Translations under genes and position numbers: made by a program
NCBI GenBank assembly: GCA_905178155.1
Contig: CAJINV010000015.1
Location: 581,309-645,308, forward strand
Source of the DNA: Amoebophrya sp. A120
Taxonomy: Eukaryota > Protista > Dinoflagellata
DNA length: 64,000 nucleotides
Direction: 5' to 3'
In this document: positions 17,701 to 47,700 of the stretch, in pieces
How the letters are laid out: every line of letters begins with the position of its first letter
Numbering within the stretch: the stretch's first letter is position 1
The notes under the pieces: generated by a model
Databases searched by the model: none
Seen by the model: only the letters and a program-made list of their open reading frames with translations
Told to the model about the DNA's origin: nothing

Positions 17701-20700
17701 ATATTTCCCAGCTCCAAATATTTCCCAGCTCGAAATATTTCCCAGCTCGAAATATTTCCCAGCTCCAAAGATTTCCCAGCTCCAAAGATTTCCCAGCTCC
17801 AAATATTTCCCAGCTCGAAATATTTTGCAACTCCAAAATATTTTACAGCTCCAAAATATTTTGCAGCTCCAGAATATTTTGCAACGCAAAATATTTCGCG
17901 GGCCCCGTCGAAAATATTTCGCAACAAACTCCCAAACAAACTCTTCTCCCCGTTTCACTTCCTTACTAAAATCCCTAAGGAAAAAAAAAACTCAGTTGGT
18001 CGCGCGTCCGAGGAGCGAGAGCAACGCGATCAGGCAGCCGAAGACCGAAGGCGGCGATCGCATTCCTGCGAACTCTACAGGGATGGCAGCGCATCCTACT
18101 GAGAAATCTTTCCCCTGGGTAGCCAGAATTGTTGCGCTAAACACAACAACTCGGGGAAAACAAGCAAAACGCTCCATCCTTTTGCCCGTTCCTTCCCACT
18201 ACCCCAATATCCCCTCACTATCCTGATACCCTCCCAGTGCCCTATTGGAAATCTTTTCCCTGGGTAGCCAGAATTGCTGCGCTAAGCAAAGCAACTCGGG
18301 CAAGAAAGTGAATCTTTTCAATCCCTGTCCAATGTCCTCCAAGTATCCTGAAGATACCCTCCCAACATCCTACTGGAAGCCTTTCCCCTGGGTAGCCAGC
18401 TTTGCTGTGTTAAACACAGCAACTCGGGCAAAAAATCCAATATCCTCCCACTATCCTGATACCCTACCAATATCCTATTGGGAACCCTTTCCCCAGGTAG
18501 TCAGAATTGCTATGCTAAACACAGCAACTCGGACAAAAAATCCAATATCCTCCCACGATCCTGATACCCTCCCAATATCTTCCTGAAAATAAACCCTTTC
18601 CCCGGGTAGCCAGAATTGCTGTGCTAAACACAGCAACTCTTGCAAAAAAACCCGAAAAGCCCCAAAGTCGCCCCTGGAAATACCCTCGGGCCATCTCCGC
18701 CCGGCCGACATTCCGCCTGGATATGCCTTGAGGCGTCTTGCTTCGCCTGAAATTGTAGCAGCGCCCGCGGTGCAGATGCCTTCTCAAAGTGTTTCTAGCT
18801 GGATTTCCAGATGGAAATGGAGCAGGCCTCTTCAGCTGGAAATCCAGCTGGAAACACTTTGAACAGGCCAGGTGGGAAATGCATTGAAAAGCAAAAGGCG
18901 TCTGCAGCTGCATTTCCAGGCGGAAACGCGCTGCAGATGCCTCTTCCAAATGTTTCTCCAGCTGGAAATGCATTGAAAAGGCGTCTGCCGCCGTCTGGGG
19001 AACACCGCCGGCGGCCAAGCACCAGGTGAGCAGCTGCCCACCACCCTCCCCCGGCGCCCTCCCTCTGTTCGCGAAGGGAAAATCGCGCCCCAGCGCCAGG
19101 CGTGCAGGCGAGCAGCTGCCCTCACCACCCTTCCCCGGCGCCCTCCCTCTGTTCACGAAGAGACCGGCAGAGGGCGCCACCGTCCGCCGTCTCTGTCTCG
19201 GAGGAAGGGCGCGCGCGAGGGAAGCAGGCGGGGGCGAAACAGATTGCATGCGAGGTAACGCGGGGGGCGCCGTTGTTGTCCGGGGGTGCTGGGGGAGACT
19301 GGTGGGCCCCTGCGCCTAGAGGGCAATGAATGAATGCCCCGCCCCGGCTCCCTTCCTCCATCCACGCGCGCGGCAGGGGCCCCAGCGCGCGAGCGTCCGT
19401 TCTGCAAGGCTGCGCGCAGAAGAAGGGCGCGGGGGGCACCAAGGCGCAGAGGGGCGGGGCACGCAGGCAGGCGGCACGAACGGGCCACACCGCAAACGCG
19501 CGGGTGGGGCGTCACGCGCCAGCGCCTCGCATGGCGCGGACTGTTCGCCTGCTTCCTTCCCCCGTCCACTGGCGCCCGCCCGCTGCCGCGCTTTGCGTTG
19601 TTGCTTGGGCCTAAGGCTTGCCGCCACGCAAACGCGCACCCAGTACGAGCGGGGTCCTCGCGCTCGCACAACAAAAGGGAACCACGGGCGCCATGGCGCT
19701 CCTCCTTCGTTCTTTCAGCAAGAAGCGGCGCAGATGCCTGGCCCCGCCCTGCATCAAAAATTTTCTCCCTTACCCACCCTCTGGCGTTTTTCTTTCCACC
19801 CCGTCCACTCGTTCACCCTCCCACTGCGCGACATAAGTTGCGGCCTTGTAGCATGAACAGCAATAGTACAACAGACACCACCCCACGTGGAGTCCATGCA
19901 TGACAAATTTGAGCGCCTAGCGTAGTAGTGTTTGAGCTTCCGGGATTTGTCATGCAAACAATGCCACAAGGAAGTGCCTCGATTTATTGGGGTTTTGCAT
20001 GACAAATGACGGTGACCACGGGGAGTTGTGCACTGCCATAAAGCCAGACACTGTATTTGCGGAGCTCCCGCTGGAGGAGAAAATCGGCTTCAAAACCTCG
20101 AGGAGGTATGAACTGCAAAAGTATCGCACTCGTATAAATGCATTACAAATTTCCGCAGCATGAGAAGTAAAATTTGTAATGCAGATTCGCCTTGGGAACC
20201 AGATTTGTAATGCAGGACTCGCATTTATACGAGTACGATACTTTTGCACAGGATAGGAGGAGGTAGGGCACAATTTCGTTTCGGATTTTCGTGCCGGAGC
20301 AGGTCTTCATGATTTGCATTGCAGGAGATGCTCCTGCAGAAGTCGTCGACGCGACTCCTTTCGACCCCCCTTCTGGTATATTATTCTCCTGCATCAACAA
20401 CAGAAGCCCTTGCCTCACGACGGAGACAAGCAAGTAGCAGACCCGCACGGCCAACATGGGCTTTTGCGAGTCCGCAAAAAGAATTTGCTTCCCGAGGTAG
20501 ACTTTGGAAAAAAGCTTCACGAACGTCTCCAGAAGGCTTGTGGATTTTTGATTTTGTGTTGCATCGTCCGCAATAAAGTTGTGAAACCATTTCTGCTGTT
20601 CCAGCAGGGAAAAAATCCCCGAGACCGGGTGTGGCAGCGCCTTCTTGTGCGTGAAAACCGCGAAATTCCTCACCATTTGCTGGTGCGGGGTGTTCGGTGG

Positions 20701-26700: not shown

Positions 26701-29700
26701 AGGCGCGCCCCTCGGAAGAGGTGAGACAGAGGGTCTGCGAGAGGGTTAAAAAAACCCGAATCCGCCCGGCACAGGGTCGATTTTTTGGGCCTTTTTCGTC
26801 GTGTAGGTTCGCACCGTCTCGCGCCAACCTCTCGCGCACCATCTCGCGCCACCCTGTCGCGCCACCCTCTCTGGCCACCCTCTCGCGCGTGATCACAAAG
26901 GGGCTTCGCGGCCCCCGTTCTGCCTCGGCAGGCACCTACGCCGAGGCGGCTTCGCTTCGCCCCCAAGTTTCGCTGCAGCTGCTCCCTGCGCATAGCGCCA
27001 GAAGGCGCGGGAAGCGCGCAGGAGGCCCAGCGGGTTGAGATGGCGCAATCCGGCGCCAGTATTTCCTTCGACCTATCACGCCGGGCGCAAAGCTCTGGCG
27101 CTGTGGCCCGATCCGCAAATCGTCCTGCCCCACCACAACAGCCGCTCGCCCCGGCGTCGGCCGGGGCATGGCTGGTAGTTTGTAATGCAAAAAAACGACT
27201 CCAGTTGGAGCACCATTTATAACTCCTATTGCTGAGCTGCGCGAGTTAAAACTTTGCGACGGGGAGGAAAATCGCCCGCGCCGGAAATTTTTTGACAATT
27301 TTGAAACTTTCCAAAGCTGTCGCGATTTGCGAAATCGCCCACCGCCCAACGGCCAACGGCAACCGGCCAAATCGCAAACGGCCAACGGCCAAATCGCAAA
27401 CGGCCACCGGCCAACGGCCAAATCGCAAACGATCAACAGCCAACGGCCAACGTCCAGCGGCCAAATCGCAAACAGCCAACGGCCAAATCGCAAACGGCCA
27501 ACGGCCAAATCGCAAACGGCCAACGGCCAAATCGCCAACGAACGGCCAACGGCCAACGGCCAAATCGCAAACGNNNNNNNNNNNNNNNNNNNNNNNNNNN
27601 NNNNNNNNNNNNNNNNNNNNNNNNNNNNNNNNNNNNNNNNNNNNNNNNNNNNNNNNNNNNNNNNNNNNNNNNNNNNNNNNNNNNNNNNNNNNNNNNNNNN
27701 NNNNNNNNNNNNNNNNNNNNNNNNNNNNNNNNNNNNNNNNNNNNNNNNNNNNNNNNNNNNNNNNNNNNNNNNNNNNNNNNNNNNNNNNNNNNNNNNNNNN
27801 NNNNNNNNNNNNNNNNNNNNNNNNNNNNNNNNNNNNNNNNNNNNNNNNNNNNNNNNNNNNNNNNNNNNNNNNNNNNNNNNNNNNNNNNNNNNNNNNNNNN
27901 NNNNNNNNNNNNNNNNNNNNNNNNNNNNNNNNNNNNNNNNNNNNNNNNNNNNNNNNNNNNNNNNNNNNNNNNNNNNNNNNNNNNNNNNNNNNNNNNNNNN
28001 NNNNNNNNNNNNNNNNNNNNNNNNNNNNNNNNNNNNNNNNNNNNNNNNNNNNNNNNNNNNNNNNNNNNNNNNNNNNNNNNNNNNNNNNNNNNNNNNNNNN
28101 NNNNNNNNNNNNNNNNNNNNNNNNNNNNNNNNNNNNNNNNNNNNNNNNNNNNNNNNNNNNNNNNNNNNNNNNNNNNNNNNNNNNNNNNNNNNNNNNNNNN
28201 NNNNNNNNNNNNNNNNNNNNNNNNNNNNNNNNNNNNNNNNNNNNNNNNNNNNNNNNNNNNNNNNNNNNNNNNNNNGGGAAACGGCCAACGGGAAACGGCC
28301 ACCGGGAAACGGCCAACGGGAAACGGCCAACGGGAAACGGCCAACGGGGGACGTGTCGCAAAGCGAAATACTTTGCGACGCAAAAGATTTTGCAACTCGA
28401 AAAATTTTCCAACGAAAAATATTTTGCCAGCCAAAAAATTTCGCAAGCCGAAAAATTTTGCAAGTCGAAATTTTTCGCAAGCCCAAAAATTTTGCGCTTC
28501 GAAATATTTTGCAAGCCCAAATATTTTGCAAGCCCAAAAATTTCGCAAGTCGAAAAATTTTGCAGCCCTCGAAAAATATTCTGGCCAGGAAATATTTCGC
28601 GGCAACCTTCCAAACAAACCGCCTCCCCCATTTTTGCAGCTTTGGGAACGCACGGGGAAGGCGGGGCGCACGGGGAAAGCGGAAAGCAGGGGGAGGGTGG
28701 CTGGGAAGCACGAGGACAACGGGAAGCACGGGAAAAGCGGGAAGCACGGGGAAAGCGGGGAAAGCGGGAAGCACGGGGAAGGCGGGAAGCAAGGGGAAGG
28801 CGGAAAGCACGGGGAAAACGGGAAGCACGGGGAAAACGGGAAGCACGGGGAAAGCCGGAAGCACCCACGGGGAAAACGGGAAGCACGGGGAAAACGGGGA
28901 GCGCGGGGAAGACGGGAAGCACGGAGAAAACGGGAAGCGCGGGGAAAATGGGAAGCACCGGGAAGACGCGAAGCACGGNNNNNNNNNNNNNNNNNNNNNN
29001 NNNNNNNNNNNNNNNNNNNNNNNNNNNNNNNNNNNNNNNNNNNNNNNNNNNNNNNNNNNNNNNNNNNNNNNNNNNNNNGGAAGCACCCACGGGGAAAACG
29101 GGAAGCACGGGGAAAAGGGGGGGGGGGGGGGGGGCGGGGAGCACGGGGAAAGCGGGAAGCACGGGGGAAGCGGGAAGCACAGGGAAGGCGGGAAGCACGG
29201 GGAAGGCGGGAAGCACGGGGAACACGGGAAGCACGGGGAAAGCGGGGGCACGGGGAAGACGGGAGGCACGGGAAAAGCGGGAAGCACAGGGAAAGCGGGA
29301 AGCACGGGGAAAACGGGAAGCACGGGGAAAGCGGGAAGCACGCACGGGGGAAGCAAGTAAGCGGGAAGCAAGGGGGAAGCGGGCGCGAGGCACGGGGGGC
29401 GGGGCCGCGGAGCATCGGCCCACGGTCGGGGACAGCCGCGCCCGGCCCCCGCACCAGGCCCGCAGGCGAGCAGCTGCCCACCACCCTCCCCCGGGGCCCT
29501 CCCTCTGTTCGCGAGGGGGCTGGAAGAAGGCGCCACCATCCGCCTCTCTGCCTGCCCGCGTCTCTTGGATGGAGACTCGCTCGCTCGCTGCGCGCGAGCG
29601 AGGGAAGGGAGGCGGGGGCGGTACAGACTGCGCGCAAGGTAGCGCGTGGGGCGCCGTCGTTGCCCGGGGGTGCGGGGGGGGGGGGGGGGTGGTGGGCCCC

Positions 29701-32700: not shown

Positions 32701-35700
32701 GCATGACAAATTCATGTAACAGTTGAGAATGTAACACTTGAGAACGCCATAGATGGTCGTAGTTTTGTCGCCAGGAGAGGAGTTTCGAAACCGAGTAGAT
32801 CTATCCTGTGCAAAAGTATCGTACTCGTAGTAATTGCATTCATGCATTACAAATCTTTTTCTTAAGGCAAATCTGCATTACAAATTTCATTTCTCATGCT
32901 GAGAAAATTTGTAATGCAATTATACGAGTACGATACTTTTGCAGTTCATAAGATCAGGTTCGTCGCAACGCTGTCGAGACACTGCTTCACAGACAGTTGC
33001 TGGTCATTGTAATTTTGCTTCAGAAACCGGAAGGGGATCATCTTTCGCGCTTCCACGTCGGACACAGAATTCACCATGGCTTCGTACAAGCTAGATATGA
33101 TCGCGAAGAGGACCGAGACGTGAGAGTCGATGGTGGTAGAGGGCGCCGTGATTGTTGAGGACGGATGTTTAAAATTACTAGATGTTGAAAAAGGACAACT
33201 CGAAGAGGATGTTGGTCTACTGGATGTCACTCTCGAGAAGAACGACTGCTGCTTGCGCACGAAGTTTGGGAAGAAATCGTTGGTCATCTCCTGTTGAAAG
33301 CTGTCCCGGCCTAGAATGGGGTGAGTTCGAGTTGCCCCCGCTATCATGCGCTCGTCATGGGAGTTCGGACTTGCTTCATACCCCTCGTCCAGAAAATCTA
33401 CTTCGCCTTCACCTTCTGTCGTACTAGCATAGTACCGTAGAAACCCCACGTCTTTATGGGGTTCTCAAACGTTACATTCTCAAGTGTTACATGGATTTTT
33501 TGGCATGCAAAATTGCCATAAGCAACCGCACGACCAAGCGGCTGCGCATGACAAATCTCCGAAGGGCTAAACAGCATGGATGTCTGTGCCAAACTTGTGA
33601 TGCTCGAGTTGCAAGGTCCTCCCTTTCACTTTCGCTTTTCTTGCATCAGAAATCCACGCAACAGTTGAGAATGTAACATTTGAGAACGCCATAGTCTTCC
33701 AATAGGAATTTCGGGTCCCGGAATAGTTTCAGGAAAATGGAGTCTAGAAACGGGTTATCAAATGTAAAAGTGTCTGGGTCTGGAAGATTCTGAGACTTGT
33801 CATGCACGTTTTGCATGGGCCATGATGTCTGCGATGCATGCCCTAGCATTGCAGACTTTTTGAGGGCTTCGCGATGCCTATTCCGCATGACAAATGCCCT
33901 CTCCGCGTAGCCAAAATCGATTCCCTTTGCTGGTCATGCAATACACATTTTTTTGGAATCCAAATGCAGCATCACAAGTTCGGACTCTTCCAGACCCAGA
34001 CACTTTTGCTTTACATACGGGTAGCAGTAGTTTTCTGCTTCATCGTGTTTCAGTATATGAACGGACAAAATGCAAAACGGGACAGTAAAAAAACCAAGAA
34101 AAATCGTGATTTGTATCATTTAGTGTGTTTACAAACAACATCCGGAACGACCGACTGCTACTCCTCCGCGGATCGCAACACTCACGACTTGATCTCCTGC
34201 AAGACAAATTCGACGAAAGAACTTGGGAGCACAACCGACTGGTGTGGTTTCGGACCGCCTGCTGATCTTCGTGCTTCATCCTCCGTCAGAGCAAAGATCT
34301 CAGGCACTTTTTTGCCATGCACGAGCGGATACGACCAAAACTTGTGGTTTAATACAGAACCACAAGGATTCGCGCCAAGGGGAAACAGAGATACGAGGGA
34401 GAAAGTCGTGACTTGTTGGCGCACGCAACCATGCTGGGATTCGTTGCTACAGGTTCATTGAAAACGAAGACAAAAGGAAACAGGGTTTGCTAATAGTTTT
34501 GGTGACAACGTCCCTCGATTATTTTTGTTTGACTGTGTCTTATTTGCCTTTATCTGCAGAAGGTCTTGATGTTGAAGTTGCAACTAAAGTTCAAGTTGTG
34601 ATGTAGTGCTGCCAAAAAATAAAAATTACGACTTGCATAGGGTAACACACAACCGGGCGTCTGGGTCCTGTAAATGATGAAGCTACTTCTACTTCAACTA
34701 CATCTCGGTGTATCTTAATTTTTTTGCGAGCGAAATCGACAACGCAACACTGCTGAGAGCGAAGTGCTGACTTCCTACCTGGAAGTGAATGAAGCTGGTG
34801 CACGAGTAGACGGATCTACACTACGAACGACCGAAAAAGTTAGCTTATTGCTGTATAGAAATACGAGTGTAAAATATTATCATTAACATTCAGAATCTGA
34901 ATCAGAAATGTGCGAGAGTTTGAGTAAACTATTTCTGCAAATCATTCTACGGATTAGAAAAAGGCGCTACTGAAAATAAAACGTGGCGATGGAGTTTGCT
35001 TTTGCTAAATATAAACTGCTGATATTGATAAACTACACCTTCTGCTTCTTGCTCGGTGTGAGCTCCTCTTCATCCACTTTTTCATTTTCCTCATCATCAC
35101 CTTCCAACTGCAGCAAGTTGATCTTCTTCTCCTCCGCCTTCATCATGTTGGCCCGCATAGATGCGAACGGGTTCAGCAAGTCCACCTTGTTTTCCGCATG
35201 CGGATTGATCACCGGCGCGCTGGAGCTGGAAGAAGCGGAACTGCTGGAGGCCGCCGTGACCTCGGACACGACCTTCTTCGCCTCCTCCGTGAACTTCTGC
35301 ATGTTGGATGCCGCCGCGGCCTTGCTCCCGATGTGTTTCGAGATGTTCTGCATGTCGATGTCGGCCATGTCGCTCGAAATCATGCAGCTCCCCAGGTCGG
35401 CCATCGCCTTGAACGCTTCCTTCTCCTTCTGCAGGCTCTTGTCCCATTTCTCGCGGGCGGTCTTGCCGGTCGGCGGCTTCGTCGGGTCCTCCTCCATGTC
35501 GAAAAAAGCCGGCACCGGCTCTCTGGTTTTGAAGGGGATCTTGAACTTCACGCACAGCTGCTCGTCGCCCTCCAGGTCGAAGCGGTACGTGGCCGGCTTG
35601 AAAACGATGCTCTCCCCGTCGCCGATCGCCGCCGTGCACTTCCACACCATCTTCAACCCCTTCTGGTAAAAAGCGGCCTTGTCTTCCTCGAATTCCCCGG

Positions 35701-38700
35701 TCACGGTGATAGGGATTTCGACGCCCCGGACCTTGGTCTTCCGCGCCGCCGCAGTGTTCAGCCAGAACTCCGAGTTGACCCCCTCAATGTCCTTTTGTTC
35801 GTAAAACTCGCTGTCCAGACGAATGTTCTCCATGGACACCTTCGTCGTGATCTTGCTGCTCATCATGGAGTGCACCTCAAAAAAATCGAGGGTGGAGCAG
35901 GCCACCGCCTTCTCCTCCAGGTCGGTCAACAACTTCTTGTTCTCATCCCGCAACCGTTGCAACTCCGCCTTCTCATCGTTGTGCGCCTTCTCGATCTCCG
36001 TCGCCATTTCCATCTGCACGCTGTCGTCGTTGGAGTTGTTCCGCTTGATTTGTTTCTTCTTCGCCTCCTTGTTTTTCAGGATCGTCGCCCGCAGCTTCGA
36101 GTACTTGGATTCGCAGTCGTTAATCTGCCGGGTCAGCGCAGTTGTCGCCAACTTCCCCTGCTTGGTGTAGTACTTCTCCTCCACGTTCTCACACTTGCCC
36201 ACGATCGCGCACTGCTTGTTGTCCAACATCTGAAACGCGCCGGCATTGGCGTAATCCAGCCGCACCACCGTCTTCGCCACCAAGTTACCGCAGGCAATGA
36301 CCGGCGCGTTGAGCAGCTTGATCTGGGTCATGCCCTTGAAGGCCTGGGGGGTAATTTCCATCAACTTCGAAATCGGCGCGAGGATGAGACTGAGCCAGCC
36401 ACCCTGCTTGTTCTGCTCCTGTGCCCGGGCCTTCGACAACTTCCACGTTTCGGGGTAGGCCAGGCCACAGTCCTCCGGGGTTAGCCCCACGACGGTTTTG
36501 GTCTGCAGGTCGGTCAACTTCAGGTTGTCGCGGTCCTGTGGTCGATGAAGTGGGTTGTTGTGAGAAGGGCGACATCAGATGGCTCTACCTCTACGCATGA
36601 CAAATTCTAAATCTTCTCCTTCAAAATCAAAATTGCAAAAATATTTTAACGATGAGATTCCACGAGTCCAAAAAAAAGCAAGCAGCTATACCGTCCACAC
36701 CAACGCCTCCCGGTCCTCGTCCCACTGCTTTCCGGTCTTCGCGTTTCTGATCATCTCGGCGATGATGTGTACGAGAATTAAGTTCTTTTGTATCCAGAAG
36801 AAATAAAAAAAGAGATCAAGGTTGGGCGGGAAGTGTGCATGACAGATTTTTTTTTGGATACAAACAGACTTATTCTGCATGACAAACTTTAACTTTTACT
36901 GTGCATGATCATGATTTTGCATGACAGACTGCGACTGGAGTTGGAACATCTTCACGCGATCGCGATAAAAATTTTGCATGACAGATTTGCTGAACATATA
37001 TTCTATCTTCCCCTGCGTCGACCTTGTTCTCATTATACTCACTGCCATACGCTCCTGGACTCGCTCCGACATTCGGGTGCCCGCAGCTTCGTCTGGCCGC
37101 AGGTAGTTGTTCCGCACCAGCTTGACGATCGCTGTCATTTCCTCCACCCCGATTTTAATTCCCTTCACCCCCGCGTACAACTCCGTCTTCACAAACCCGT
37201 CCTGGCCGCACCACAGCTGCAACCACGCAGACGCCGAGTAATCCTTCACCGGGGGCGTTTGGTACTGGAGCTTGACAGCGTATTCATGAGCAAAGCAGGC
37301 GAATTGGTTCACGCTGGTTGGTGCGGTTCGAATTTGACAAGACCAACTGCAGAGCACACAGTGATCTGCAGGTGGTAAGCACCATCTTGCACAAAAATTA
37401 ATACAGACAAATTCCGGACCAACTCTGTTGAAGCAAAACACCAACGTCTGCGCCATACAACGCGGATGACGGAGCTGTGGCGAGATGTAATGTGGGGTGG
37501 GGAGTGCGTCGTGCTTTTTGTGATGCATTACGGCACTATGCAAAGCAAATCTGTCATGCGTAGAAAGCAGCACACTACCTGATGAACTGGGCATACTTGG
37601 ACTCGTCGTTCCTCGTGGAATACCGCCGCATAAAATGCGGCCAATTGGTCGACAGCCTGGTCAACAGCTTACCCAGGTACAAGAGCTCGGTAATTTCGTA
37701 GTGATTGCGCGTGGCAATGCAATAGGTCTGTTTTCGGAACGTAAATAGAAATAGGATCAGAATTTCTCATGCAGTTTTCGAAATTAATAGGATCAGAATT
37801 TCTCATGCAATTTCCTCAGGCGAATTAAACAACAACCAGAAGCGATCACAAAGACCATCGATACCCGATAAAAATCCAGCTCCTCCTGGGGGGTGGGTTT
37901 GTGCTTCAGCGTTGCCTTGTGCTTGTTCCAAGCTTTCTCGATCTGGAATGTGAAAGAAGTGCTTTGCTATTTTGCTAACTTCCAAAAACAAAACCCAAAA
38001 ACAGCTCGCATTAGTCACGTCATCATCTTCGCACTAGTCACGTAAAGCAATTTTTTTTCCTAAGTCTTGATTGCCACCGCGCTGATCGACATCCGCGATT
38101 TTGCAAAACCAGCAATAAGGACTAGCACCTGCAGAACAACAACAAAGGCCAAACGATGGCGCGCAAGAGCAGTAAAAGCCAAACCAAGAAGAGCGGGGCA
38201 AAGGCTGCGCAGAAGGCAGCGGCGGGCAAAAAACTGCAGGCGAGGCCGACAGGGCATGGCAAAGAAAACGCAGCGGATGGGGAAGAGCGCAGCGGTTCCC
38301 TGAGTATGTGCGACGCCCGTCGATTTGCAGACCAACTCGCAAAATCAGCAGGGCGGAAAAAGAAGGCCGGCGAGGCCTACAAGCTTTGCTGGCTCCTGCA
38401 ATGTTTCACGGGGCGGAGGGGCATCGACGTTCGCTCCCTCACCCTCGCGGACGTCGAGCCGGGGCGGGTGCGCATCGGAAACAGTAAGCTGGCAAAGCAA
38501 CCAAACGGCCGCGGCCACCTGAAATGGGTGCCCATCGATCCGGCGAAAGCAACGGCCACCTTCATAAGAAACCAGCTCGCGCAGATGCGCGAGGACGGAA
38601 AAAAGGCGGGCGATAAGATTTTCAATTTTGGATATGAGGCGTTCGAGCTGAAGGTGAGGCAGGTTCGCCAAACCTTCAAAACCCGGAACGCCCTCTCCTG

Positions 38701-41700
38701 CCCCGCGACGCTGATTACGTCCCACACGCCAAGGCGATCCCTGGCGTCCCACCTGTTTCGCAACAGTGTCGCGCTATCAACGATTCAACAGATTACTGGC
38801 CACGCATCTGTTGCGACCCTGATGAGATACATCAACGCGGACTACAGTTTTCAGCTGCAGGCCGCTTCGCTCGTCAAAATTTGATAAGAAACAAAACGCA
38901 AAAAGGATTTAATTTACCATGGGAAAAAGTACGAGCACTTTCTCAGCCGTAGTGGCTTCCATCCCGGTAACACCCTCGTTTTTACAATTAATGTAAGTGT
39001 CGAGAAGTCGACTGAACTCTGGCTGGTCGAGTCGTTCATCCAAGATGTTGCACCTTGGTTGTTTTTTATTTTTGTCATGCGGATCATAGGCATCTCCCTG
39101 TGAACCACCATGATACTGCGCAACTACCATGGGGAAACCGTTAACCCTATTAATCTTACAGTAAGACCGTGTCTGGGAATTTGAATGTAAAAAAATTTCA
39201 AAAACAGATGCAATACACGAGCCCGATTTTGAACGCACGGTCCCCATACTTCGCATGGAAACGGAGGAGCGCCTGAATGCTGTGATTACCGGACACCGGG
39301 CGGAGCTTGCCCTTCGACCGGAGCAGGAAGATTTCTGGAAGGTGTTATTTTTTCAAATCTGTAATGCTGTTCATTTCGAATAGAAGAGTGGCTGCATGAT
39401 GCTTTTCAACTTTTATCTGCTATGAGAATTTGTCATGCGGAAACGATTTGAAAACAGGTAAAGTACTGGCGGTGTTGTAAAAATTCCCCTTCACCATGTG
39501 GCCGAACAACTCGATCATCCACGATAACTTCCGCAACAGGTTCTTCGCGTGCATCGCGATCATGGTGAGAATCGTAGCGGTGATGAGGATATCACCGGGC
39601 TGCGTGCGGTCGTAGCACCGGTCCTCGACGAAGTCGATAAGCTGCTGCTGATTTTCCAACTCCCCGGCGTCCTTCTTCCGGAGCAGCTCGTCCGCTTCTT
39701 CTTTCGTTGGAAAGGTAGTAGGGGTTATTTCTACTTTTTCCTTGTTGGCTTCTTGCTCGTCGGACTCCAATTTGGGCCCGCCCGGAAGGAGCATATCCTT
39801 CAAAGCCTCACCGGCGTGCATGATTTTTGCAGTTTTTTTCTAGTGTGTGCAACGCCTGAAAAATTACAAAACACTCATAAAATGCTACTACTCTATCTGC
39901 TGAAGGCGTCTTTCGAAGCATGCAATCTCGCAAATCATCAACAGGTAAGAGCACATCAAAGACGGAAAATTCAAGGCCCGAAACAGTTCTTCAAGTGGTC
40001 ACGACAGGTCCCAGAGAGAGGTATTTGCATTGGAATGAATGCTGTCCAACATAGATTTTTCTGTGAATTTCACATGTTTTTCCAAGTCGCAAAAAATAGG
40101 CGAATCAAGAATCTTGGTTTTTTCCTAGATTTTTTTTCCGCGAATGGACAATTCTTGGCCAGAACCTGGCTTTTTGGCGAAGAATTGGCCAAACGGAGGA
40201 AAAAAATCAAGGAAAAAACCAAGATTCTTGATTTGGTGATTTTTGGAGGTCGTGAAAACTCATCAACTTCTCGCTAAAAAAAGGCTACCCGCGCCTCGAT
40301 CTCATCATTAATTTAGTGGTGGAGAGTTACATTCTACGACCCAACGAACGCGGAACACACGACGAAAAAACGCAAAACGAAGCCGATTTCATGGCGAGCG
40401 CAACAACGTAGGAGGCTGGTACTAGCTGTTTTATAGAAGCACTCCACGCAGTCCACTCTACATTTTTACTACTATGAAACGCCTCAAACGTTATGTCTCG
40501 GAGCAGTCGAACCGCCACTGCTACGTTCCAAAACCGAATAAACAAGCGGAGCCAAAGTTGTACTAAAATTATACAAGAAAATGCTTTGAGCCAGAGCCGG
40601 CTAAGAAACAAACTAAAAGATCACGCACCTGTGCACAAACATCAGTTGTCTTCATCACTTGACTCCTCACTGTCACTACCATCCTCCACCATCTTGCTGT
40701 ACTTCGCGGTGCTTTGAATGTACTGCTGTATCACCTGCCAGGATGCTTGCTCCTCAGCATCAGTGACATCCGGAAGGGGTTCGTTTTTGNNNNNNNNNNN
40801 NNNNNNNNNNNNNNNNNNNNNNNNNNNNNNNNNNNNNNNNNNNNNNNNNNNNNNNNNNNNNNNNNNNNNNNNNNNNNNNNNNNNNNNNNCGCAAAAAATA
40901 GGCGAATCAAGAATCTTGGTTTTTTCCTAGATTTTTTTTCCGCGAATGGACAATTCTTGGCCAGAACCTGGCTTTTTGGCGAAGAATTGGCCAAACGGAG
41001 GAAAAAAATCAAGGAAAAAACCAAGATTCTTGATTTGGTGATTTTTGGAGGTCGTGAAAACTCATCAACTTCTCGCTAAAAAAAGGCTACCCGCGCCTCG
41101 ATCTCATCATTAATTTAGTGGTGGAGAGTTACATTCTACGACCCAACGAACGCGGAACACACGACGAAAAAACGCAAAACGAAGCCGATTTCATGGCGAG
41201 CGCAACAACGTAGGAGGCTGGTACTAGCTGTTTTATAGAAGCACTCCACGCAGTCCACTCTACATTTTTACTACTATGAAACGCCTCAAACGTTATGTCT
41301 CGGAGCAGTCGAACCGCCACTGCTACGTTCCAAAACCGAATAAACAAGCGGAGCCAAAGTTGTACTAAAATTATACAAGAAAATGCTTTGAGCCAGAGCC
41401 GGCTAAGAAACAAACTAAAAGATCACGCACCTGTGCACAAACATCAGTTGTCTTCATCACTTGACTCCTCACTGTCACTACCATCCTCCACCATCTTGCT
41501 GTACTTCGCGGTGCTTTGAATGTACTGCTGTATCACCTGCCAGGATGCTTGCTCCTCAGCATCAGTGACATCCGGAAGGGGTTCGTTTTTGTATTCGCAC
41601 ATCTGTCCGCAGAGCTCCCTGCGGGCCCGCGCGATTGATTCCCGGTCCAACATCCTCCCCGTAGTTACCCTGGAAAAATTCACATCCTCCAAACTAGTCA

Positions 41701-44700
41701 AACCGCCACCACGAACCTTGCGGCGAAACCGGATCGGAATTTTTCCCGACCAGTTGCTGTTCTCCGGTCGGAAGATGATGTACAAATTTTCCAGCAGGGA
41801 GGAGTGCTTTTTTTCTGGCACTGCGTCAAACATGTTGTAGTTCTTCCAAGGGTCCTCGCGCTCGGTGCGCGACGATGCGGCTTTAGAAAAGGAGGCCCCC
41901 TTGACATCCTTGTTCTTCGCCGATTCCGCATTCCGCACAACAACATCGGCCCGGAGGTACTCTTTTGCCTGCCAGCGGTTTTTGTCGACGACGACATACA
42001 GCTGCTTGTCGTCCATCGTCCAGGAAAAATGCGCCGTGGGGTTTGAGTGCCATTTGAACATCTTCGTGAGCGTGGTCGGGGCGGGACGGGATGTCCAGTG
42101 GGCGACCGTTTTCACCGAAGGCTGCGCAAGCTGCACCGGGTATCGCTCGCACTCTCTTCCTGCGATGGTAAAAACATCCTTGAGCGGGCCGCATGCTAAC
42201 AACCATCCCCGCTGCTTCTTTGTCCTGAAGCACAAGTAGGGAAACTCCGGGTCTGGGTTGCGGCCCGTCGGAACGCGCACGACGAGATCACCAGTCTTCA
42301 CGTAGGTCATTATGTTGACCTTCGACCCGATGTGCCACTTCAACGTGGCGGGAACGTCGAAGAAGTTCTTCACAAGCTCCGGAACGACTGTAGCACCATG
42401 CTGACCAAGGGGACCACCGACACGGCCGGGCTGCTTCACCGCTGTGTTCTCGCTGTAGTCGGCCTGCGCATGCAGTGCGTGCTCGAGTGTTGGGTGGACG
42501 TACTCCCGGTCGTTCACCTTTTCCAAATCCACGAGCACCTGGTTCTCAACCACCATCTCCTCCTCCATCCCGAAAAGGTCATCTTCCTCCGCCTCGTTGC
42601 CACCCGGCGCCGCAAGTCCGCGCACCTGCCGCGCACGCTTAGCAGCCTGCTTCCCCTTTTCGTCTTTCGCGGTCGCAAATCTGTTGTCGCACAACTTCCG
42701 CACAAGTTCTCTGTTTTCCTTGTACTCGCTGAAGGACATGCTGAGCTCGTCGCCGATTTGTGCGCGAATCCCTGCGCGCGTGCACCCGAGATTTGGCGCG
42801 ACCCGTTTGTTGTTGGTGGTAGTACTGTGTCGCGCTTCTGTGACCTGCGACGACGAAACCATGAGGGGCACCAAGGGGCCGACGATCTCCTGTAGCCGGG
42901 CCGACATCGCTCCGCCGTTTGCGACCTGTTCAAGATCGGTCTTGTGCGGGATCTGGATCCAATTGAGAAAACAATCGCAGTCATCTTTGGGCAGGAGGAG
43001 CAACAACTGTGCTGATTTTTTCGCCGTATCGTCCACCGTGTCCTGCAGCCCTCGCAACAAATTCGGATACGTCCAGAGCGTCTTCTCCCGCGTCGGCAGC
43101 CGGATGAAAACATTCAACAGCAACAGCATCCCCGTGGTATCTCCCGGCCTTGTCAGCATGTGGTTCTCGATGGCCCGGAGCAGCTCGGTCTTTGTTTTGG
43201 GTTTGTGGCAGTGGTGCGCCATCTCCGCCAGTCGGACATTGGTGTAGACCTGTTTCAAGTCGGCCTTCAGCCGGTTGCTCTGCGACGAGACGATGGTTAA
43301 AGCGGCGCGAGCAGATTCACACGTTGACCAAAACGCCGGGTCCGCTGCGGACTTTTTCGCCGCTTTAGCCGTTGCGCGGTTTTCTTCTTTTTTGTTTTTT
43401 GGTTCCAGGTTCCGCAGGAGCTGCTGTATCTGGGTGCGGTTTTTCAACAAATCCTCAACACAGTCCGAGAACGTCTGCCACCGGTGGGACTGATACTCCC
43501 GGATCGCCATGTGCTGCGGATCCCCGGTCTCCGGCCCCCAAAAGTGAATCGCTTTTTGCAATTTCCCGACCTCCCCAACAAACCCGTCCCGCATGGAGTT
43601 CAAAACCTGGAGATGCTCGCCGTCCAAAAGCGAGTACTGGTGGTGCAAGCATACGAGCTGGACCACGAATGTTTGGATCAGGAGGCCGCTTTTTTGCCCC
43701 CGCGCCTTTTGCTCCTTGCGTTTGACGTTCAGCGCCCTGCTGCACGTGCGCAAAACGTTCATCGCCTTGACGACATCGCTGCCGCAGTCTGTGCAGCTGA
43801 TTATCACCAGCAAGGGGTCCGACGGGAAGTCATCCACCGTCGATCCCGGCATGGGGATCAGATCCGCGAGCAAGTGGTACAACTCGCATAGGTACGAAAG
43901 ATAACCACGCGCAACGGAGCCGTGCTTCGTCGGTGGCGGCACAAATGTTTTCACAACCGGAACCCCGTCCACCATTCGCACCAACGTGACGTCGACCGCC
44001 AGAAGCTCGGCAGAGCGGAAATCGGTCGCGTCGGGAGCTATGCGGACCACAACGAGCGGTCGCAACAACTTCGGAACCTGATCAAGCTTCGCCTCCTTTT
44101 TCGCAAGGTGTTCTGCCAACTTCGAATCCGCCTCCAGACGCATCTCACCCAGGAATCGCCCGTTGAAAACAAAAGGCTGCCAGTACTTCTGCCCCTTCGG
44201 GTTAATGTCCGTGTCGAAGATGCAGTGAAGGTCGCGCTTGGTCCGCATGTCGTAACACTTCCCGGCCAGGACCTCACTCCGCTCTGCCATCTTCCGATAC
44301 GTGTCGAGCAGCTGCTTCATGTAATCGTCCGCGCGCTGCTTCTCCGCCTTCGCTTCGTCGTGTGATTTGTTGTTTCCCAGGATGTTGAGTTTCTGCCGCT
44401 TCGCGGCTCCACCAGCTAAAGCCAACTCGCCACCACTCTCACCGCACCCCAACTCAAAAACCCTGCTTCCCGTCGGCGCTAGCATCTCCATGGTGCCGAG
44501 CACGTTGAACCTCGTCTTCTGCGTGACAATTTCGGAAAAGCCCCAAAGCTTCTGCAGTAGCGCGATCTTCTTTGTTGATGTTCCAGTACTTGTCCCGACC
44601 ACGTACTGCAAGTACTCATTTCTTTCCTTCCTGGTTTCCAATTTTTCAAATTCGGTTTGGGAGTAGTGGGCCTCGAATTCAGCCCAGACGGAGCGACGCT

Positions 44701-47700
44701 GCGCCTGTCGAAGCCGGTTTGAGTTTCATTGATTAGTAGCTCTAGCTGGAAACGGAATTATGCAGACGAGATGGATGGGAACTAGTACTAGATGTAGAGA
44801 CGCGAGCTGCATGACAAATTCAAAAAGCAGACTTGATTTTGAAAATCTAATGACGAATAGATCTAACTGTAACTGTAACCCTAAACCACAACCAGGCACC
44901 TCTCCCGTCCCATCTTCGTCATCCACTTTGCTGTTGGGGCCTCGCTTCGGCCGCTTGCGACCTGTGGAACCAAGGTCGCAGTTGGGAATCTTCAAGCCGT
45001 GCCGCTCCTCCATTTGGGACAGAACGAACGAGCGGATGGAGGAAACGCTGGCCCATCTCGCCGTTACCGCGCCGCCCGCGGTTTTTGCCCGGCGGTTGTA
45101 TGTCCGCTGGAGACTTCTCTCGCACGGCGGAGCAGTTGTTCCCTCGCCCGTGGCGGCGATCTCCTCGAGCCTGGTAATGACCTCTACTACATCGCCCCAC
45201 CCATCGATGGATTCCACCAGTTCGCGCGCCTCGCCATAATCGCTTAGCACCTGGACCGTTTTCGAAGATGCGCCAAAAACTCCTTCGTCGCTACTGGATC
45301 CGCCGGCGTTCTGGTTTTCGTCGAGGCCAACATCGACGTCGATGTCGTCGATGCCTGGTATAAAAAGATTCGCGACGTCGTCCATCTCTATGCCGGGAGG
45401 AAAGCGGCGGTATAGCACGATAGGACGGAAGACACAATGCGCACGCAGGTAAGAGGACACGACTACGCCATTTTTTTTTTTCGGTCTTCGTCTTTTAATA
45501 TCGTGGTCGAAGTCGAAGCGATTGCATGTTTGTATTGCGTAAGAAATCAAAAGCAAGACCAAATATAAAAACAATAGGAAAAGTTGTTATGGGTTTCCAC
45601 ATAATCAAAGTCAGTTTTAATTTACAATAAAGGCAAGGCAGTGTCAATGTCAAATCTATCAATAATGAAGGGCGGCTCTCTTATTTTCGTTTATCGTTAT
45701 CGCATCAGAATCAAAATGAAAAAAAAAAACTACAGGTGCGAGGCTCGGGTGCATTTCGTGACAGCAGGATGGGGAATACTACTTACGCAATCAGCTTTAC
45801 ATTCATTAGCGACAACTATGTGCGACGACAACAACTCCCAGACAGACACTAGCGACGACCATGATGCTCCAGCTCCTGTACGAAAATTGTAACGACTTGA
45901 ACTCCAACCCCCCGAAAGAGAACAACCGAAGAAAACACGAGCCCCCCTTCATGATAACGAGGTCGATTTGCAGTCGAGACCGATGTGAGCTCTGCACGTG
46001 CACGAGCACTTCCCGAGGAAAAAACACAAGTGCGCCACATAGACCAACAACTACGCCACGACACACCTGTGGTCGCTGTCGGGCTACTACTGAAGATCAA
46101 GATTGTACGCACACAGCAGCAGCCGTGAATTGTCAGGGCGCGGTGGGATCACAATCACCAAAAAATGAAGACCTACGCACATGATACGACGGACTCGGGT
46201 AAACGTCGCGCTCGTGAACGAGATGAAAACTATTTTTGGTTCCATGAAACAAAGTCAAAGCGCAAGTGCTAGCGCACTTATCACTGCGCCACCTCAGATC
46301 TCAACCTCGTACGCCCTTCGCACCAGGGGAGAACGGAAGATCTTCCCGCACGGCCACAACCTGCTCTTCCAGTTCACCACATCCACAGCAGCGTCGCATT
46401 ACAAACCTCCCCGACCGGTCGCGATACCTGATGTTGTTAGTAGTGGCTGTTGCTGGCGAAGGAGATGGAAACTCAAAAACTTATGATGAACATTTGAACT
46501 GTTGGCATTACGCATGAGATTTGAAAAAATTACGAACGTGAAGAGCAAGGCGCTCCAACTTGTTTCTTCAACATGCATGCTCATTCGGTGCTTTATGCAA
46601 ACCATTTCCAGCAACAGACACTACCAACATCATCGGCATCTGTAATGCTAATTCCAATGCGGAGCAACAGCAATAAATCTTCCCTGAGCTGCCCGGCCAT
46701 GATGTGATCCGCTCCCGGTTTCTCATTATCAACAGGCCGGCCATGTTCCTGGTCCACTTCCAACTTCTTCGGACTTTCCCTATAGGCGAATCCTTGTGGT
46801 TCTGTATTAAACCACAAGTTTTGGTCGTATCCGCTCGTGCATGGCAAAAAAGTGCCTGAGATCTTTCAATGTGGTTGCTGATCTTCGCGGGCCGAGCAGA
46901 ATGATCGCGTTCAGAAATCCGAAAAGACCATCGTCTGCACTTCCGCGTCGCAGCTTCGTTGTTGTCGATTCCAGTCGTTGTCGGTCGGCCAAGCGGTATC
47001 GTCGCGTCGCCTCACACATCGGTTTCGAACAAAGCAAAAGCTACAAATCACGATTTTTCTTGGTTTTTTTGCTGTCCCGTTTTGCATTTTGTCCGTTCAT
47101 ATTTCAGTACCACGCAGGAACTGTCCAGGGCGTAGGAGAGCAGGTGGGACAGTTCCTCGTGGAGACAAGTGAAGAAGGTGAGTGGAGCGACTTCTGTGAG
47201 TAGACCGCTATCATTTGCTGTACTGTAGTCCTCTTCTCCGTTCTTGCCGTGATCTTTTTGCGCACCTGCTGTACTAGTACCGCCACCTTCATCCACCCTA
47301 GTAGAAGCGGCGGGGGCCCCGTGCTGGTGTAGCTGCCCGGCAGAATTACGTCCGCCAGATTGATGTTCCCGCAAGCACAGGCCGGCGACGATGTCCGAAA
47401 CTTTTGCCACAACCCGCTTAGAAGTACCAGACGATGATCCACCAGCTGCACGAGAAAAGGCGCTGGAAACTGTACAGCGTCCCTCACATATCATCAGGTT
47501 CTTGAGTAAAACCGGCGTGACAAACAATTTCAGCAAAAAGCACAAATCTTCGCTGTCCATCGTGAACAGTTCCATTGCTTTTCTGTTCAGCACCACAGTC
47601 TCAATCAGCTCCAGACAAAGCAACCGGGGCCACCGGACGGAGCACAGCCAAAATCCCGGCTTGGTTTGGAGAAAGTCCTGGTTTATTTCCTGAAACTGGG

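What the first reader, a model, noticed from the sequence alone, without database searches (positions are those of the whole stretch)
34337..34370. 34-bp 13-8-13 palindromic site with loxP/FRT geometry, present twice in inverted orientation
Seen: aaaacttgtggtt-TAATACAG-aaccacaaggatt, with 9-bp perfect inner arms (11/13 overall) around an asymmetric 8-bp spacer. The second copy at 46789-46822 has the spacer reversed. The 81-bp repeats are perfectly identical, whereas the TIRs carry a mismatch. Established: loxP and the FRT core are 13-8-13 with an asymmetric spacer that sets direction. Inference: this is the target of the 38156-38884 recombinase, and potentially a new orthogonal recombinase/site pair.
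Basis: partly seen in the sequence, partly recalled or inferred. Interest (0 to 1): 0.88.

Follow-up and report, generated by a model that had tools for sequence, protein, structure and literature searches.

The report
Transposon with a flippable core
In a marine parasite's genome, a cut-and-paste-type transposon has the same palindromic site near both ends, in opposite directions, and carries its own tyrosine recombinase gene; the enzyme likely uses these sites to flip the transposon's middle, which would give a testable DNA target for a recombinase whose job in such eukaryotic transposons is unknown.

Summary
Confirmed. The 34-bp site and its exact reverse complement lie in perfect 81-bp inverted repeats. 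Symmetry is 9-8-9 perfect and 11/13 overall, so '13-8-13' is partly imposed, and the 0-versus-1 mismatch contrast with the TIRs means nothing (p=0.43). The sites sit 281 and 279 bp inside a ~12.2-kb hAT-like transposon (60-bp TIRs, 8-bp TSD) of Amoebophrya sp. A120. They mark the inner edge of an old ~318-bp terminal repeat whose middle has decayed. The element encodes a hAT-like transposase, a ParB-like multi-exon gene and, antisense in one of its predicted introns, a tyrosine recombinase with all six catalytic residues intact and no recognisable core-binding domain. In strain AT5.2, 2 of 4 recombinase homologues lie two gene numbers from a transposase homologue (p~4e-5), so the pairing looks old. 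Best reading (0.62): the site is the recombinase target and recombination flips the ~11.6-kb core. No flipped isomer was seen, and covariation could not be tested. DDE-plus-recombinase transposons are known (Tec, Sardine, MarCry). My searches found no hAT version and no defined site pair. New variant; interest 0.7.

The parts
34048..34055 (.). 8-bp target-site duplication, left copy (right copy 47102-47109)
   Evidence: a 6-bp duplication with a 61-bp TIR is an alternative register
34056..34115 (+). Left terminal inverted repeat, 60 bp (1 mismatch to the right one)
34116..34292 (+). Decayed middle part of an old long terminal repeat (177 bp), homologous in inverted sense to 46867-47041
   Evidence: score 68 vs 28.2+-9.2, 0 of 1000 shuffles; direct sense 219 of 1000
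34293..34373 (+). Left 81-bp perfect inverted repeat (44 bp outer flank + site + 3 bp)
34337..34370 (+). Left palindromic site, spacer 34350-34357; inferred recombinase target
   Evidence: function inferred
35033..39821 (-). Predicted multi-exon gene with an N-terminal ParB-like domain and a coiled-coil C-terminal part; the 3' part is A120 gene model GSA120T00026165001
   Evidence: pieces match in order to AT5.2 proteins P0011/P0012; ParB lead from Atlas; exon structure inferred
37943..38917 (-). Predicted 975-bp GT-AG intron of the ParB-like gene that holds the recombinase gene on the opposite strand
   Evidence: splice signals, same frame on both sides; homology on both sides; not shown by RNA
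38156..38884 (+). Tyrosine recombinase, 242 aa; R88 K111 H190 R193 H216 Y225; about 50-aa Ala/Lys/Ser-rich N-terminus, no recognisable core-binding domain
40088..41591 (.). 702-bp perfect duplication around a 100-N gap: likely an assembly artefact (true element about 12.2 kb)
   Evidence: one 11,664-bp contig; 12,472 minus 802 = 11,670
41444..44641 (-). hAT-like DDE transposase, main exon (D204, D285, C331xxH334, R387-W388, E602, numbered from 44641); upstream exon(s) likely in 44726-45574
46786..46866 (-). Right 81-bp perfect inverted repeat
46789..46822 (-). Right palindromic site, spacer 46802-46809, reversed relative to the left site
46867..47041 (-). Decayed middle part of the right long terminal repeat (175 bp)
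47042..47101 (-). Right terminal inverted repeat
47102..47109 (.). 8-bp target-site duplication, right copy

Best explanation
The 34-bp palindrome is likely the crossover site of the transposon's own tyrosine recombinase, and because the two copies face each other, recombination between them would flip the ~11.6-kb core relative to the element's two ends. Shown: a ~12.2-kb element with 60-bp TIRs and an 8-bp TSD; two identical sites with opposite spacers 281 and 279 bp from the ends, at the inner edge of an old ~318-bp terminal repeat; an intact recombinase gene; a transposase with hAT motifs. Inferred: the hAT-like transposase moves the element by cut-and-paste. Recombinase subunits would bind the 9-13-bp arms, and the conserved 44-bp outer flank would act as an accessory site, perhaps for a cofactor, since the enzyme has only a catalytic domain. 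Exchange would occur in the identical spacers, and repeated recombination or joint selection would keep the 81 bp identical while the rest of the repeat decays. The purpose is least certain. The one I favour (about one in three, given the site role) is orientation control: A120 genes lie in long one-strand blocks, and flipping would let an element that lands either way round align its two large genes with the local block. The main alternative purpose is resolving joined or circular copies, with flipping as a side effect.
For: The site geometry and reversed spacer. An island of 81-bp identity in a decayed repeat: the middles are homologous but diverged, the inner flanks are unrelated (361 of 1000 shuffles), and identity ends 3 bp inside the inner arm. 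The recombinase scores 50.4 bits on PF00589 (cut-off 27.1), with catalytic residues invariant in 8 of 8 aligned sequences, and is 54-62% identical to five homologues, more conserved than the transposase at 24-38%. In AT5.2, recombinase g1758 is two ids from transposase g1760, and g2071 two from g2073: 2 of 4 recombinases, against 13 transposase ids, p about 4e-5 if ids follow the scaffolds. Two further AT5.2 gene models run from the transposase into the ParB-like gene in the same order as here. Precedent that DDE transposons keep a recombinase, proposed to resolve intermediates (PMC3212892 passages). 98.5% of A120 genes lie in co-oriented blocks (PMC7789003 passage). Here most long host ORFs and both large element genes are on the minus strand; the recombinase is antisense.
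Against: No flipped isomer was seen. In run X3 (RNA status is a guess), one contig of depth 17.2 runs from the right TIR through the whole 81-bp repeat and stops matching at 34373, and no X3 contig covers the adjoining left-inner or left-middle DNA; this fits the reference orientation only. Contigs drop rare variants, so this is weak. Similar palindromes occur elsewhere in the window. The enzyme lacks the core-binding domain that bacterial tyrosine recombinases generally have (PMC8138268 passage). 2 of 4 AT5.2 recombinases have no transposase id nearby. A ParB-like protein in the same element is another candidate binder. The orientation purpose rests on one copy (a 50% coincidence), and the paper found no evidence of polycistronic co-regulation.
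Confidence: 0.62

Rival explanations
1. The palindrome is a binding site for the element's ParB-like protein (parS-like) or another element-encoded DNA-binding protein, not a crossover site; the recombinase acts elsewhere.
For: The element encodes a protein whose N-terminal domain resembles ParB_N (Atlas 0.94-0.95; one cluster 48% PF02195; GxHR-type motif in homologues). It travels with the transposase in AT5.2. Identity extends 44 bp beyond the palindrome.
Against: The ParB assignment is a lead only: no Pfam hit in the homologues. An 8-bp asymmetric spacer kept identical in both copies is what strand exchange needs and what pure binding does not (established knowledge, recalled). It leaves an intact, conserved recombinase without a target.
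Confidence: 0.12
2. The 81-bp repeats are subterminal binding sites for the hAT-like transposase and the recombinase is a passenger.
For: hAT ends carry subterminal repeats that modify transposase activity (PMC4763223 passages). The repeats are symmetric about the two ends.
Against: The subterminal repeats described are short and multiple (a hexamer six times in Kat1), not one 81-bp block with a spaced palindrome. The 5-mer repeated twice in each TIR does not recur in the rest of either end, including the 81 bp. A passenger would not be expected to be more conserved than the transposase and linked to it in two strains.
Confidence: 0.12
3. The 81-bp identity reflects recent gene conversion or a template switch in a decaying long TIR, and the palindrome has no current function.
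For: Palindromes of this size occur elsewhere in the window. No inverted isomer was seen.
Against: Only 8 of 20,000 shuffles of the 81-mer contain such a palindrome, and the block ends almost exactly at its inner arm. The recombinase is intact.
Confidence: 0.1
4. The 81-bp repeats are the ends of a separate element nested inside a small TIR element.
For: They are perfect inverted repeats that bound all of the genes.
Against: There is no target duplication beside them (GTCAGAGC vs CAATGTGG). The 8-bp TSD lies at the outer TIRs, and the middles on both sides are homologous in inverted sense.
Confidence: 0.04

Closest known systems
Ciliate Tec1/Tec2 (Euplotes) and Sardine/Thon (Paramecium) transposons
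   Same: A TIR DNA transposon with several ORFs, a DDE transposase plus a tyrosine recombinase, and long structured TIRs. The recombinase is proposed to resolve transposition intermediates (PMC3212892, PMC3464196, PMC5405496 passages).
   Different: Those are Tc1/mariner elements (TA-bounded). This one has hAT motifs, an 8-bp TSD, a ParB-like gene, a recombinase nested antisense in a predicted intron, and a discrete candidate site pair. I saw no defined recombinase site in the passages read; the primary Tec papers were not held.
MarCry-1_FO (Fusarium)
   Same: Composite element: a DDE transposase does the moving and a recombinase gene rides along (PMC3212892 passage).
   Different: Mariner transposase, Crypton recombinase, 16-bp TIRs, TA duplication; no internal site pair described in the passage.
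Flp/FRT of the yeast 2-micron plasmid; Cre/loxP of phage P1
   Same: Palindromic arms around an asymmetric 8-bp spacer, and two inverted sites inside longer identical repeats as in 2-micron (geometry recalled). Flp amplifies the plasmid (PMC7710549 passage); Cre resolves dimers (PMC8138268 passage).
   Different: This is a chromosomal transposon, not a plasmid. Only 9 bp per arm are perfect. The enzyme has only a catalytic domain and matches phage and plasmid integrases at 26-33% identity in 18 of 19 listed records. In a circle the sites would be only ~560 bp apart across the joined ends, a poor fit to the 2-micron amplification model (inference).
Bacterial invertases FimB/FimE and the Tn3-family resolvase TnpI
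   Same: Recalled, not tested: FimB/FimE are short tyrosine recombinases that flip a segment between 9-bp inverted repeats with host cofactors; TnpI is a recombinase carried by a DDE transposon with accessory sites.
   Different: Bacterial; no sequence link found here (searches give generic integrase/Xer models only).
hAT superfamily (Hermes, Ac, Kat1)
   Same: 8-bp TSD, TIRs, DDE triad with a long insertion, CxxH and RW motifs (PMC4763223).
   Different: Far larger and with several genes; no Pfam hAT domain is detected; it carries a recombinase and internal sites.

Membership tests
Tyrosine recombinase | Catalytic R-K-H-R-H/W-Y set | tested here: met
   R88 K111 H190 R193 H216 Y225 invariant in 8 of 8 rows of A1
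Tyrosine recombinase | PF00589 above the curated cut-off | tested here: met
   50.4 bits vs 27.1, residues 69-230
Cre/Flp/Xer-type simple recombinase | N-terminal core-binding domain | tested here: not met
   Family matches start at residue 58-69; residues 1-50 are Ala/Lys/Ser-rich, and homologue P0010 begins about where the conserved part does. No structure was predicted for it.
loxP/FRT-type site | Inverted arms around an asymmetric 6-8-bp spacer | tested here: met
   9 bp perfect, 8-bp spacer
loxP/FRT-type site | Full 13-bp symmetric arms | tested here: inconclusive
   11 of 13; two adjacent mismatches
loxP/FRT-type site | Bound and cleaved by the cognate recombinase; recombination products exist | not testable with these tools
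   No raw reads of this strain cover the element (X7, X8: none inside it); X3 contigs fit the reference orientation only
loxP/FRT-type site | Arms conserved or covarying in related elements | not testable with these tools
   No DNA of a related element was found; the relatives are protein records only
hAT transposon | 8-bp TSD and TIRs | tested here: met
   one insertion only
hAT transposon | DDE triad with a long insertion, CxxH, RW | tested here: met
   D204 10/13, D285 12/13, C331 12/13, H334 12/13, R387 13/13, W388 12/13, E602 11/13. The second D to E distance is 317 aa, against 136 in the MULE Muta1. The triad is assigned by motif, not by structure.
hAT transposon | C-terminal hAT dimerisation domain or other hAT Pfam model | tested here: not met
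   No hAT family in Pfam for the ORF or 14 of 14 homologues; Atlas hAT clusters only at 0.86-0.88, a lead. So 'hAT-like', not a filed member.
hAT transposon | Hermes-like fold | tested here: inconclusive
   Single-sequence model has mean pLDDT 37; the alignment-based job had not finished; no PDB sequence hit
Tec/Sardine/MarCry (Tc1-mariner plus recombinase) | DDE transposase and tyrosine recombinase in one TIR element | tested here: met
Tec/Sardine/MarCry (Tc1-mariner plus recombinase) | Tc1/mariner transposase and TA duplication | tested here: not met
   8-bp TSD, hAT-type motifs
Crypton | No TIRs, short terminal direct repeats, recombinase as the only mobilising enzyme | tested here: not met
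   TIRs and a DDE transposase are present (definition from PMC3212892)
2-micron-type plasmid | Extrachromosomal circle with a partition system and copy-number amplification | not tested
   The copy here is chromosomal with a TSD; a core depth 1.66 times that of the flank contig fits a second copy or a circle alike

The most novel reading that the evidence does not exclude
A family of self-orienting eukaryotic transposons: a hAT-like element inserts either way round, then uses a compact, catalytic-domain-only recombinase at its own paired sites to flip its core until the transposase and ParB-like genes run with the host's one-strand gene block. The recombinase gene, nested antisense, acts as the built-in sensor and off switch. 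It would be a natural DNA-inversion switch inside a eukaryotic transposon and a new small recombinase/site pair.
Probability: 0.2. Interest if true: 0.92.

Novelty: new variant of a known kind. Interest (0 to 1): 0.7.

Why it matters
[quoted passage not shown] This element offers a candidate enzyme and a sharply bounded candidate site pair, so the question can be tested in vitro and in existing Amoebophrya assemblies. It also extends the DDE-plus-recombinase design to a hAT-like transposase with a ParB-like partner, in a genome where the reference paper found putative transposases only in A25 and not in A120 (PMC7789003). An intact-looking 8-bp-TSD transposase in A120 bears on what moves that genome's introners, though no link is shown. 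A ~190-aa recombinase core with its own site could be a compact tool, but it may need the 44-bp flank and a cofactor.

Tried and rejected
No whole genome is held for the window. No DNA of related elements: recombinase queries found none in viral contigs or prokaryote genomes. The metagenome scan gave 2 loci from 49 pattern hits, both one unrelated AT-rich circular element with a 413-aa integrase, and were dropped. Site patterns had 0 matches in prokaryote genomes and viral contigs. The transposase alignment was too divergent for a locus scan, and the word-indexed search found no transposase homologue, while the full HMMER search found 14. Sequencing runs: no holder is on record as RNA; raw RNA run X7 had reads only on a flanking repeat and X8 had none, so they test nothing. 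The right half of the element was not examined with reads, which leaves its splice junctions and other insertion flanks open. The single-sequence transposase model was unusable and the alignment-based job never finished, so no fold search was run. One search (transposase profile vs recombinase profile) showed no similarity, as expected. No earlier findings came up. Doak 2003, Jacobs 2003 and a DDE-superfamily paper were not held. Rejected: nested element (no TSD at the 81-bp ends); Crypton; the TIR-mismatch argument; 2-micron-style amplification (geometry); a real tandem duplication at 40088-41591 (artefact). Single-strand folding of the 81-mer shows only the expected hairpin (z -2.55) and does not separate the rivals.

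Full report
OBSERVATION. The site is at 34337-34370 and its exact reverse complement at 46789-46822. The inner 9 bp of the arms are perfectly symmetric around an 8-bp asymmetric spacer; 11 of 13 positions match, and symmetry ends at position 14. Both copies lie in an 81-bp perfect inverted repeat (34293-34373 / 46786-46866) that reaches 44 bp outward and only 3 bp inward of the site. The pattern occurs nowhere else in the window with up to 3 mismatches. Only 8 of 20,000 shuffles of the 81-mer contain a comparable palindrome, but 32 of 2326 tiles of this repeat-rich window do, mostly from one tandem array. The contrast with the TIR mismatch is not significant (p=0.43).

THE ELEMENT. The sites lie 281 and 279 bp inside an element at 34056-47101 with 60-bp TIRs (one mismatch) and an 8-bp target duplication. 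The 177- and 175-bp stretches between TIR and 81-bp repeat are homologous in inverted sense but diverged (score 68 vs 28.2+-9.2; 0 of 1000 shuffles), whereas the DNA just inside the sites is unrelated (361 of 1000). So each end is an old ~318-bp repeat with two conserved islands: the tip, and the block ending at the palindrome. A 702-bp duplication around the N gap is likely an assembly artefact: run X1 has one 11,664-bp contig starting inside the left repeat, against 11,670 expected without the duplicate. The element is therefore about 12.2 kb. The host is Amoebophrya sp. A120: an ORF of the element matches gene model GSA120T00026165001 at 100% over 67% of its length. Removing the element and one TSD copy restores an open frame in a host exon with weak MON2/BIG-type Pfam hits nearby. 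The core contig has depth 79.8 against 48 for the left-flank contig (ratio 1.66). That fits a second near-identical copy, but the tool warns that depth is no copy number.

THE GENES. (1) 41444-44641 (-) has 14 homologues, almost all from Amoebophrya AT5.2 or unnamed marine records. In 13 aligned sequences D204, D285, CxxH 331-334, RW 387-388 and E602 are conserved in 10-13 of 13. With the 8-bp TSD and the 317-aa D-to-E distance, this points to hAT rather than MULE (PMC4763223 and PMC5225508 passages). No Pfam or PDB hit supports it, the Atlas lists hAT clusters only as leads, and the structure models failed or did not finish, so I call it hAT-like. (2) 38156-38884 (+) is a tyrosine recombinase (PF00589) with all six catalytic residues invariant in 8 of 8 sequences. 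It has 7 homologues at 31-62%, four of them AT5.2 paralogues, and one cluster includes a transcriptome record. It has no recognisable core-binding domain, unlike the general architecture described in PMC8138268. (3) ORF pieces from 39821 down to 35033 (-) match, in order, the C-terminal extensions of two AT5.2 gene models that fuse transposase and downstream gene. The first domain resembles ParB_N and unnamed giant-virus proteins (Atlas 0.94-0.95; a lead). The recombinase sits antisense inside a predicted 975-bp GT-AG intron of this gene.

CO-OCCURRENCE. AT5.2 recombinase ids are g1514, g1758, g2071 and g19144. Thirteen transposase ids include g1760 and g2073. So 2 of 4 recombinases lie two ids from a transposase, as here, where one gene piece separates them; chance is about 4e-5 if ids follow the scaffolds (that assumption was not checked). 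The other two have no transposase id within two. A recombinase nested antisense in an intron could be missed by gene callers, so the link may be under-counted (inference).

MECHANISM. Shown: geometry, position, conservation, an intact enzyme, and linkage in two strains. Inferred: the enzyme binds the arms, exchanges strands in the identical spacers and, as the spacers are opposed, inverts about 11.6 kb. The 44-bp outer flank would be an accessory site. I give this 0.62. For purpose I favour orientation control, because 98.5% of A120 genes lie in co-oriented blocks (PMC7789003 passage) and both large element genes run with the minus-strand block here while the recombinase is antisense. That is one copy, and the same paper saw no sign of polycistronic co-regulation. 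Resolution of joined or circular copies, the role proposed for Tec, is about as likely; 2-micron-style amplification fits the geometry poorly.

AGAINST. No inverted isomer was seen. In X3 a contig covers the right TIR and the full 81 bp and leaves the reference at 34373, with no cover of the adjoining left-hand DNA, which fits the reference orientation only; contigs drop rare forms and X3 may be DNA. X1 contigs break at the repeat and cannot show linkage. Covariation was untestable because no related DNA was found. The ParB-like protein and the transposase are alternative binders (0.12 each); chance homogenisation 0.10; nested element 0.04.

WHAT IS KNOWN. Tec1/Tec2, Sardine/Thon and MarCry pair a Tc1/mariner transposase with a tyrosine recombinase (passages of PMC3212892, PMC3464196, PMC5405496, PMC13465315). 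I read keyword passages only, and for other listed papers only the search listing. A search for all of hAT, transposon, tyrosine recombinase, internal inverted repeat and eukaryot- gave 0 papers. Searches listed nothing whose title or abstract start describes this element. PMC7789003 has 0 occurrences of 'recombinase' and reports putative transposases only in A25; the passages of PMC12130899 read describe a different A120 element. Subscription journals, Repbase and the supplements were not seen. FimB/FimE, TnpI and loxP/FRT details are recalled, not tested.

VERDICT. A real feature; most likely the recombinase target; a new variant of the DDE-plus-recombinase transposons. Interest 0.7, chiefly because it makes the role of such recombinases directly testable.

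Noticed in passing
window 34055 / 47110: The element interrupts what looks like a host exon (frame restored without it; weak MON2/BIG-type DCB and HUS hits upstream), and the left-flank contig runs into the TIR without a branch, so the insertion may be fixed. The gene is either dead or the 12-kb element is spliced out like the genome's introners.
   Followed up: partly
window 37943-38917: The recombinase gene is nested antisense in a predicted canonical intron of a ParB-like gene; gene callers would tend to miss such recombinases in related elements.
   Followed up: partly
window 38909-39821 (-): The ParB-like domain's nearest Atlas clusters are unnamed giant-virus (Nucleocytoviricota) proteins (searched with homologue P0012), a possible viral link of the cargo.
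   Followed up: no
window 34243-34271 and 46870-46887: A 7-bp half-site core followed by a shared 12-mer occurs in the same (+) orientation in both decayed middles, near each 81-bp repeat: possible extra binding sites or relics.
   Followed up: no
window 36219 and 34009-34055: The X1 core contig differs from the window at 36219, and one contig of depth 47.5 joins other sequence to the TIR start; both fit a second copy at another locus.
   Followed up: partly
window 38020-38050: A 9-bp motif occurs twice just upstream of the recombinase gene, a possible promoter or operator element.
   Followed up: no
window 17207-17954 and 27330-29350: Tandem arrays: a palindromic 17-bp unit array, and 7/14- and 9/18-bp arrays around two gaps.
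   Followed up: no
whole window: Many 150-250-bp inverted-repeat introner families, as described for Amoebophrya; very high summed contig depth on the one at 33755-34020.
   Followed up: no
L001 / L002: An unrelated 6.8-kb circular AT-rich element with an integrase, an excisionase-like ORF and replication-like ORFs came up through a shared motif; labels for the smaller ORFs are my guess.
   Followed up: no
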